Of a stretch of DNA of 64,000 bases, positions 45,511 through 47,396 are shown piece after piece. The stretch is from Eledone cirrhosa. Its lineage: Eukaryota. Under the pieces are notes generated by a model. It saw nothing but the letters and a program-made list of their open reading frames with translations, searched no databases and was not told the origin of the DNA. The DNA lies in the NCBI GenBank assembly GCA_964016885.1, contig OZ024752.1, positions 16,368,001 to 16,432,000 on the forward strand, written 5' to 3'. The first letter of the stretch is position 1; every line of letters begins with the position of its first letter. The position numbers and the translations under genes are program-made.

Positions 45511-45584
45511 GGAGGGAGCGGGTTATATATATATATATATTAATTCAAAATATTAACAAAATAGACATTCGTGTGATCAAGTAT

Positions 45585-45649
45585 ATTTTATTATACATAT
45601 TTCAGAGGTACTGAGCTATCTTCAACAGTACGTCCTCATCAGATAAAAT
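45585..45649 (-). ncRNA. Hammerhead ribozyme (mirror copy of 47137-47201)
   Basis: Reverse complement with intact core. Confidence 0.72.
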
Positions 45650-47136
45650 AAGATGATGCATGACATACCCTGACATAGTAGATGGTTAAGATTCAGTCAG
45701 GGTAGTGAATATGATATGACAAGACTCAATATTTATATACCTTAAGATTGAGACATGGAAAAACTTACATATAATACAGAGGGTACGTGTGAGAAAGCTT
45801 AAAAATACATAATAGCAATTTACATAACTGTTAGAGATTCAAATAATATAAATTTTTGAAGAAAGAAGAAAGAAAGAAGAAAGACAGAGAGAAAACGATG
45901 AGGAAAAATATAGTTACTAGAAGTATAGAAAGCAAAAGAGAATTGATCAAGGATAGAGAGACAAGGAGGAATAATTTTTATAGTATAAAGCATAGATAAA
46001 TACATGAATATACATTTGGGCATAGCTTTGTGAAAGAGTAAACTCGAATCTTTGAATTATCTAGAAGTATCCATCTATCTAAATATTGAATATATCTGGG
46101 TGTAATTATATGAGGGTTTAATTTCGAGTCCTCAATTAATAAGAAATATACTAACAATTATTTATACACCATATATATCCAAACTTATCCGGCTGACTGT
46201 TAAATTTCAAATTCCTTATGTTAGTTCAGAATAATAGATTAAACTAAAGGTATAATATTTCAGGATATAAAAGTTTATAAATGTCTATATTAATATTAAA
46301 GTATACTAACATATTTAATTTATAAAATTATATTTAAAGTATTTTCAAACATGAGAAAGAAACTTAGTATTTTCATCCACACGAAGGTAAACCATATTAA
46401 ATTATATTATCTTATATTATTTTCCCATACTAAAATAATTCTCACTATATAATTTAGAAAATAATTACAGTTATAACTTTAAAAATTAATATTAATATAG
46501 ACATTTATAAACTTTTATAGCCTGAAATATTATACCTTTATTTTTAATCTATTATTCTGAACTAACATAAGGAATTTGAAATTTAACAGTCAGCCGGATA
46601 AGTTTGGATATATATGGTGTATAAATAATTGTTAGCATATTTCTTATTAATTGAGGACTCGAAATTAAACCCTCATATAATTACACCCAGATATATTTAA
46701 TATTTAGATAGATGGATACTTCTAGATAATTCAAAGATTCGAGTTTACTCTTTCACAAAGCTATGCCCAAATGTATATTCATGTATTTATCTATGCTTTA
46801 TACTATACAAATTATTCCCCTTTGTCTCTCTATCCTTGATCAATTCTCTTTTGCTTTCTATACCTCTAGTAACTATATTTTTCCTCATCGTTTTCTCTCT
46901 GTCTTTCTTCTTTCTTTCTTCTTTTTTCAATAATTTATATTATTTGAATCTCTAACAGTTATGTAAATTGCTATTATGTATTTTTAAGCTTTCTCACACG
47001 TACCCTCTGTATTATATGTAAGTTTTTCCATGTCTCAATCTTAAGGTATATAAATATTGAGTCTTGTCATATCATATTCACTACCATGACTGAATCTTAA
47101 CCATCTACTATGTCAGGGTATGTCATGCATCATCTT

Positions 47137-47201
47137 ATTTTATCTGATGAGGACGTACTGTTGAAGATAGCTCAGTACCTCTGAAATATGTATAATAAAA
47201 T
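47137..47201 (+). ncRNA. Hammerhead ribozyme with extended stem II
   Basis: attttat CTGATGA gg-ac-gtactg..cagtac-ctct GAAA tatgt ATA ataaaat. Confidence 0.72.
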
Positions 47202-47340
47202 ATACTTGATCACACGAATGTCTATTTTTGTTAATATTTTGAATTAATATTAATAACTCCGGAAAACCATAACTGTTGAGTGCTTCCAATCTATTGTAAA
47301 ACTCATTCCTTGATTTATTCATTGAACCTTGTTTAACCTT

Positions 47341-47396
<56 letters not shown>

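What the first reader, a model, noticed from the sequence alone, without database searches (positions are those of the whole stretch)
45540..47343. 1.7-kb near-perfect non-coding palindrome with intact hammerheads in both polarities
Seen: about 760-bp arms with few mismatches, no credible ORF, and both ribozyme cores intact. Inference: a transcript of either strand forms a rod-like dsRNA carrying one hammerhead plus its antisense, which should sequester it. Minimal hammerheads with palindromic stem III work as same-polarity dimers, so inversion may block cleavage in cis. The dsRNA would be a strong ADAR or small-RNA substrate, which matters if the host is a coleoid cephalopod with extensive A-to-I editing.
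Basis: partly seen in the sequence, partly recalled or inferred. Interest (0 to 1): 0.72.

Follow-up and report, generated by a model that had tools for sequence, protein, structure and literature searches.

The report
Hydra-type Penelope retrotransposon two-armed insertion
The palindrome is real, but it is two back-to-back truncated copies of the non-coding end of a common Penelope-type jumping gene, each carrying that element's usual small ribozyme motif; this layout is already described, and it likely forms when both ends of a DNA cut are extended from the element's RNA.

Summary
The palindrome (45537-47250; arms 765/763 nt, 11 mismatches, 2 gap columns) and both hammerhead motifs are confirmed. 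It is not a dedicated non-coding RNA locus. It is one insertion of a high-copy Hydra-clade Penelope-like retrotransposon: two 5'-truncated copies of its 2.1-kb 3' UTR joined head-to-head in a (TA)n repeat. Longer copies elsewhere carry the ORF, with Hydra motifs and a telomerase-like RT fold. Inverted 5' copies, a one-sided tail and hammerheads on both strands are in print (PMC8557442, PMC4209133). In 58 stretches examined I found 31 such pairs; all 31 join one tail-less and one 98-nt-tailed outer end, on either arm, and paired arms share rare variants. This favours two cDNAs primed from both sides of one cut at two fixed RNA start sites (inferred). The scan had already noted this pattern on other DNA. 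A read-through transcript would fold into long dsRNA that masks the ribozyme, but no RNA evidence was obtainable and genomic copies show no A-to-G excess. No spanning read was available.

The parts
45537..46487 (-). Longer arm: 5'-truncated copy (951 nt) of the 3' UTR of a Hydra-clade Penelope-like element, ending at the family's short, tail-less 3' end (at 45537)
46300..46485 (-). Spacer of the palindrome: simply the further 5' part of the longer arm, not host DNA
   Evidence: other copies run on from the arm into this stretch
46486..46487 (.). Head-to-head junction, 2-nt overlap in A+T-rich sequence (imperfect match of up to about 10 nt); unique to this locus among 40 scored of 654 candidates
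46486..47348 (+). Shorter arm: inverted 5'-truncated copy (863 nt) ending at the family's long, tailed 3' end
47251..47348 (+). 98-nt tail, present on this arm only; in tandem copies it runs on into the leader and start codon of the ORF; its last 5 letters are shared with the (TA)n flank
47136..47202 (+). Minimal type I hammerhead motif; core 47144-47150 and 47183-47186; self-complementary stem III 47186-47193; predicted cut after 47194
   Evidence: cleavage not tested
45584..45650 (-). Identical hammerhead motif in the other arm; predicted cut after 45592 on the - strand
45524..45540 (.). (TA)n target, left side (a larger TA array lies at 45284-45509)
47344..47392 (.). (TA)n target, right side

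Best explanation
The palindrome is two 5'-truncated copies of the 3' UTR of a Hydra-clade Penelope-like retrotransposon, joined head-to-head inside a (TA)n repeat, and it was likely made in one event in which both ends of a DNA cut primed reverse transcription of the element's RNA. Shown: family identity, ORF in longer copies, orientation, the two end types, the TA target. Inferred: the element's RT-endonuclease cuts both strands of (TA)n; each 3' end primes cDNA, one at the short start site (56 nt behind the hammerhead cut site) and one at the long start site 98 nt further on; both cDNAs stop early at unrelated points and are joined by end-joining, giving tails-outward arms. The hammerheads ride along as part of the terminal repeat; their likely job is in full-length tandem transcripts, as same-polarity dimers or with the protein's help. 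This truncated copy is most likely inert; if a host transcript crosses it, it would form long dsRNA as a by-product.
For: High-copy family: 1,241 candidates, 40 scored at 97-100% identity. Longer copies carry an ORF on the hammerhead strand with RWR, DKT, YRDD, CxCX5C linker, VY..YIG, CxxC-E-N-CxH; these motifs hold in 47-59 of 59 homologues and match the Hydra definition (PMC8557442 section 11 and Fig. S7 text). The model's top four PDB matches are telomerase RTs (pLDDT 80); the C-terminus aligns with a Pfam GIY-YIG-positive PLE protein (probability 48%, weak). 64 of 91 ends abut (TA)>=4. 31 tails-outward pairs in 58 stretches: 28 short+long as parsed, and the 3 long+long cases have an inner repeat that continues into a tandem copy whose outer end is short, so 31 of 31 outer ends are mixed (0.5^31, about 5e-10, if ends were independent; arithmetic). 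The longer arm has the short end in 21 and the tailed end in 10 (plus L050/L069). Truncation points of the two arms are unrelated and junctions are blunt, overlap by 1-7 nt or hold short fillers. Paired arms share non-majority variants at 0.0103/nt against 0.0021 for cross-locus pairs (13 pairs). In vitro a PLE protein cuts and extends both strands, starts at two sites bounding the tail, is predicted to be a dimer, and does not need hammerhead cleavage (PMC11167929, main text read).
Against: The mechanism is read from genomic footprints only. In vitro no difference in start site between the two strands was seen (PMC11167929), so the strict short+long pairing is not explained by that work. About 20 stretches show no inverted partner at the head (19 inspected: some abut TA directly, others other repeats), so two arms are not obligatory. 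Shared variants between arms could come from later gene conversion. Pfam does not detect GIY-YIG or RT in the 750-aa frame (a weak RVT_1 hit, E 0.009, in one fragment), the PDB sequence search is empty, and no tree with published Hydra proteins was built. No fully intact ORF was seen among the copies translated. No spanning read.
Confidence: 0.85

Rival explanations
1. Same element, but the inversion came from one cDNA or an antisense RNA that folded back and primed itself (self-priming), with one end later trimmed by the endonuclease.
For: Proposed in print for head-to-head Penelope copies (PMC3846280 discussion passage) and 'EN-mediated resolution' for the tail (PMC8557442). Arms share rare variants; the window's junction has short A+T microhomology.
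Against: Either arm can be the longer one and either can bear the tail (21 vs 10); spacers reach several kb; many junctions are blunt or hold fillers.
Confidence: 0.2
2. One reading: the locus is a functional hairpin-RNA source whose inversion silences the ribozyme and feeds ADAR or small-RNA pathways, for example to silence the family.
For: Predicted full masking of the hammerhead in a read-through RNA. Repeat dsRNA is the main ADAR target, Penelope included in lizard (PMC5625713 passages). A possibly bidirectional promoter in the terminal repeat was suggested for rotifer Penelope (PMC3846280 passage).
Against: The layout is the common product of this family (31 pairs in 58 stretches; cores on both strands in 13-14 of 29 other pairs), so nothing singles out this locus. 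No extra conservation of the core within the family, and no A-to-G excess in 67 genomic copies (A>G 4.5, T>C 5.8, C>T 28.7, G>A 32.8 per 1000). No host protein-coding gene was recognised near it (introns and exons not mapped).
Confidence: 0.07
3. The palindrome is an assembly artefact (fold-back read).
For: No listed read or contig bridges the junction.
Against: Arms differ at 13 columns, end at the two family-specific ends, do not extend into flanks, and 30 other pairs share the layout. The runs laid were fragmented contigs and sparse RAD reads.
Confidence: 0.02
4. It is a fold-back DNA transposon or a non-autonomous retrozyme with terminal inverted repeats.
For: Long inverted arms, no ORF, hammerheads.
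Against: Junction positions differ in every copy, arms are nested truncations of one 4.6-kb RT-coding unit, and there is no tandem monomer.
Confidence: 0.02

Closest known systems
Hydra clade of C-terminal EN+ Penelope-like elements (Craig et al. 2021, PMC8557442; seen: passages, section 11, supplement tables S1, S2 and Fig. S7 text)
   Same: DKT and RW[K/R] motifs, CxCX5C linker, CxxC and CxH round the conserved E and N, 3' hammerhead with short palindromic stem III, (TA)n target. Penelope-13_HM is listed with an inverted 5' copy and a hammerhead on each strand. The ORF is collinear by eye with Hydra-1_Obim.
   Different: Unit about 4.6 kb with a 2.1-kb 3' UTR (published: under about 3 kb); tail 98 nt (published 30-40); asparagine-rich inserts between RT and EN; hammerhead sequence unlike that of Hydra-1_Obim, so a separate family.
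EN+ PLE insertions with an inverted 5'-truncated copy and one-sided tail (PMC8557442 Fig. 2 legend; PMC3846280 passages)
   Same: Head-to-head arms, tail on one end, partial tandems.
   Different: Here counted: 31 of 31 pairs have one short and one tailed outer end, on either arm.
Minimal PLE hammerheads (Cervera and De la Pena 2014, PMC4209133; seen: abstract, results, discussion)
   Same: Core, long stem II, palindromic stem III, genome-wide scatter with truncated copies; pairs on opposite strands 100-700 bp apart are mentioned.
   Different: Cores here are 1.5 kb apart; activity untested.
Poseidon of Anolis, in vitro (Frangieh et al. 2024, PMC11167929; seen: main text)
   Same: Two RT start sites bounding the tail, A+T-rich target, ends beyond the hammerhead cut site.
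   Different: Other clade; here both start sites lie at AUAU-like letters that could pair with the (TA)n primer, whereas that paper reports no homology to the cut DNA.
Animal non-LTR retrozymes (bioRxiv 10.64898/2026.07.22.740005; seen: abstract only)
   Same: Hammerhead-bearing non-coding PLE-related sequence.
   Different: No tandem monomers here; this is a truncation of an autonomous-type element.

Membership tests
EN+ Penelope-like elements | Single ORF with telomerase-related RT | tested here: met
   In other copies: YRDD motif, 750-aa frame; top four fold matches are TERTs. Absent from this truncated copy.
EN+ Penelope-like elements | C-terminal GIY-YIG endonuclease | tested here: inconclusive
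   VY..YIG, R..H, E, N motifs conserved and aligned to a Pfam GIY-YIG-positive PLE (probability 48%); Pfam itself negative; domain not folded alone.
EN+ Penelope-like elements | Pseudo-LTR, partial tandems, inverted 5' copy, optional tail | tested here: met
EN+ Penelope-like elements | Hammerhead motif in the terminal repeat | tested here: met
   12 of 19 pairs with two-sided changes over 14 motifs of several families (rows were selected by a pairing descriptor, so this leans towards the structure)
Hydra clade | DKG changed to DKT; RWK motif | tested here: met
   DKT in L078, RWR in L066; DK[T/S] in 58 of 59 and R.RW[KR] in 47 of 59 homologues
Hydra clade | CxCX5C linker; CxxC and CxH flanking E and N | tested here: met
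   Complete in L058; one linker and one CxxC cysteine changed in L078; 58-59 of 59 homologues
Hydra clade | Absence of the CCHH finger and of the insertion-in-fingers domain | tested here: inconclusive
   Read by eye from conserved columns and collinearity with published Hydra rows; not tested formally
Hydra clade | Insertion into (TA)n | tested here: met
   64 of 91 ends by a strict rule; both ends in the window
Hydra clade | Generally short (<3 kb; descriptive, not diagnostic) | tested here: not met
   Unit about 4.6 kb because of a 2.1-kb 3' UTR
Hydra clade | Placement in the Hydra clade by RT phylogeny | not tested
Hammerhead ribozyme (type I, minimal) | Self-cleavage | not testable with these tools
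   Needs in vitro assay; Rfam negative
Non-LTR retrozyme | Tandem non-coding monomers bounded by same-polarity hammerheads | tested here: not met
   No tandem unit at this locus; sequence is part of an ORF-bearing unit

The most novel reading that the evidence does not exclude
Penelope-type elements insert by an obligately asymmetric two-ended reaction: a protein dimer primes one cDNA from each side of a cut (TA)n, always one at the short and one at the tailed start site of RNA from the same source, so every two-armed insertion is a ready-made hairpin. In a genome with thousands of such insertions this would supply a large pool of long dsRNA for editing and small-RNA silencing.
Probability: 0.4. 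Interest if true: 0.55.

Novelty: new member of a known kind. Interest (0 to 1): 0.25.

Why it matters
The locus itself is ordinary retrotransposon debris. Its value is as one data point on how Penelope-like elements make their inverted copies, a step the literature calls unresolved (PMC8557442 discussion passage; PMC11167929). The 31-of-31 short+tailed rule turns the qualitative statement 'tail often at one end only' into a testable constraint, and this young, abundant Hydra family with a long tail is a convenient system. The same rule was already noted by this scan for other families and genomes.

Tried and rejected
Rfam: no hammerhead hit. Sequencing runs: no RNA holder listed, which is no evidence on expression. 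Read laying: no listed piece bridges the junction; the 46300/46486 'opposite strands' joint is just the normal continuation of any copy, not support for this locus. Pfam and PDB sequence searches of the ORF were empty or weak. A-to-G signature of edited templates in genomic copies: none. Selenoprotein reading of the arms (a TGA before a short open stretch): dropped, the arms lie 1.1 kb or more behind the ORF's stop. Hidden inverted stubs at the heads of unpaired copies: none in 18 of 19, one 8-nt match inside TA. Duplicated signal behind the two start sites (lead from e1-9568615): a 26-32-nt similarity is present (7 of 2000 shuffles as high) but predicted folds were not consistent. Script faults: one search missed the family's hammerheads through a lazy pattern and was redone; the label 'both arms hold HHR' on every row is a printing error, the count is the last line (14 of 29, one of them, L053, probably spurious because that arm is too short). 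Literature searches for a published two-ended model or short+long count and for octopus Penelope hammerheads returned nothing beyond the papers cited; the library is incomplete. The bioRxiv retrozyme paper was seen as abstract only and its supplements were not requested.

Full report
Observation. The inverted repeat is real. Arms 45537-46299 and 46486-47250 match over 765/763 nt with 11 mismatches and 2 gap columns, around a 186-nt spacer. The right arm runs on for 98 unpaired bases to 47348, and both outer ends abut (TA)n. No ORF of 150 aa or more overlaps it. Each arm holds the same minimal type I hammerhead motif (47136-47202 +, 45584-45650 -). My descriptor finds 5 such motifs in the window and 0 in each of 30 shuffles. 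Rfam misses them. Across 14 motifs of several families, 96% of cells pair and 12 of 19 pairs change on both sides, with the caveat that rows were chosen by a pairing rule.

What it is. The last 261 nt of the arm have 1,241 candidates in the own genome; the 40 scored are 97-100% identical. I took about 10 kb round 37 of these 40 hits (two are this locus, two others share one locus) and round 20 of 150 hits to an RT fragment, chosen by rank and length of open frame. All copies are nested 5' truncations of one unit of about 4.6 kb. The spacer is part of the left arm, so the locus is a 951-nt copy on the minus strand joined head-to-head to an 863-nt copy on the plus strand; the junction occurs only here among 40 scored of 654 candidates. 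Longer copies carry an ORF on the hammerhead strand whose stop lies about 2.1 kb before the short end, which explains why the arms do not code. The protein has RWR, DKT, YRDD, a CxCX5C linker, VY..YIG and CxxC-E-N-CxH; these hold in 47 to 59 of 59 homologues. They are the stated marks of the Hydra clade of Penelope-like elements, which also insert in (TA)n and carry 3' hammerheads (PMC8557442 section 11 and supplement). The model (pLDDT 80) matches telomerase RTs best. Against: Pfam and PDB sequence searches are empty or weak, the endonuclease match is motif-level, no tree was built, and the unit is longer than published Hydra elements.

The layout is in print. An inverted 5'-truncated copy and a tail at one end are the typical PLE structure (PMC8557442 Fig. 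2 legend; PMC3846280 passages). The Hydra family Penelope-13_HM is listed with such an inverted copy and a hammerhead on each strand, and opposite-strand pairs of minimal hammerheads are mentioned in PMC4209133. Of 29 other pairs checked here, 13-14 have a core on both strands.

How it likely arose. Copies end at two fixed points, 56 nt (short) and 154 nt (tailed) behind the predicted hammerhead cut; 64 of 91 ends abut (TA)>=4. In 58 stretches (57 loci and the window) there are 31 tails-outward pairs: 28 parse as short+tailed; in the other 3 an inner tailed repeat continues into a tandem copy whose outer end is short. So 31 of 31 outer-end pairs are mixed. The longer arm bears the short end in 21 and the tail in 10 (and L050/L069). 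The two truncation points are unrelated, and junctions are blunt, overlap by 1-7 nt or hold short fillers. Arms of a pair share non-majority variants five times more often than copies from different loci (0.0103 vs 0.0021 per nt over 13 pairs; the window's arms share 8, two seen in no other copy), which fits one source element, or later conversion. In vitro a PLE protein cuts and extends both strands, starts at two sites bounding the tail, is predicted to dimerise, and uses uncut RNA (PMC11167929). The simplest reading, inferred, is two cDNAs primed from the two sides of one cut and joined at their unfinished ends. Self-priming fold-back (PMC3846280) remains a rival. About 20 stretches show no partner, so one-armed insertions or later disruption occur too, and that paper saw no strand difference in start sites.

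A read-through RNA of either strand folds with all 67 hammerhead bases paired to the other arm, and only one sense hammerhead is present, so cleavage in cis is unlikely given that monomers of such motifs did not cut (PMC4209133). That is a consequence of the insertion geometry. Intact cores are expected: 61 of 67 copies keep them and core columns are no more conserved than others. Genomic copies show no A-to-G excess. Editing of repeat dsRNA, Penelope included, is known (PMC5625713 passages). Transcription of this locus could not be tested, and the host was not identified; a cephalopod fits the Hydra-1_Obim likeness and one Argonauta homologue but is not shown.

Earlier notes of this scan, read after my own count, report the same reading and the same one-tail rule for other families and genomes. 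They are not independent support. One lead, a duplicated signal behind the two start sites, was partly seen here.

Verdict. Observation confirmed, interpretation partly supported. A new family of a known clade in a known insertion layout; the counted end-pairing rule is the only part of mechanistic interest. Interest 0.25.

Noticed in passing
window 15301-15800: Same layout from another hammerhead family: cores at 15397 (-) and 15643 (+), short end on the left next to (TA)n, longer right end; a further copy of its end at 14302-14464.
   Followed up: partly
window 39690-40019: Older relative (78% identity) of this family: tailed left arm, short right arm, left hammerhead cut off at the junction.
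   Followed up: partly
window 43000-43453: Inverted pair of 183-nt arms with a hammerhead-like core at 43289 (+) and a decayed one in the left arm, next to (TA)n.
   Followed up: partly
window 27380-29120: Large palindrome between two TA arrays with remnants of a GIY-YIG PLE C-terminus on both strands at its centre (28091-28355); no hammerhead core found by my pattern.
   Followed up: partly
window 16516-17632, 20416-21935, 12711-12971: Fragments of other Hydra-type ORFs (36-56% identity to this family's protein); 20416-21935 is bounded by 219-nt inverted arms.
   Followed up: partly
window 60766-61003: 238-nt near-perfect hairpin beside (TA)n, no hammerhead core; a related stretch lies near 8997.
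   Followed up: no
window 4406-7771: Broken LINE-type element with RVT_1 and zf-RVT matches.
   Followed up: no
window 995-1747: 250-aa frame on the minus strand with C2H2 zinc-finger matches, the only candidate host-gene piece seen.
   Followed up: no
window 41716-42114, 43499-43672, 44418-44709 and many loci: Very common repeat of about 190 nt, SINE-like, also inserted into one copy of the element (L066).
   Followed up: no
window 51371-52857, 61815-63652, 40649-40967: Young minisatellites of 106, 83 and 79 nt (95-98% identity between units).
   Followed up: no
L066 unit positions about 2900-3450 and 3850-3920: The 3' UTR contains an old internal direct duplication (65-80% identity, about 550-750 nt apart).
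   Followed up: no
L058:7545-8624 and other copies: Asparagine-rich stretches between RT and endonuclease, recalling the N-rich inserts described in rotifer Penelope (PMC3846280 passage).
   Followed up: no
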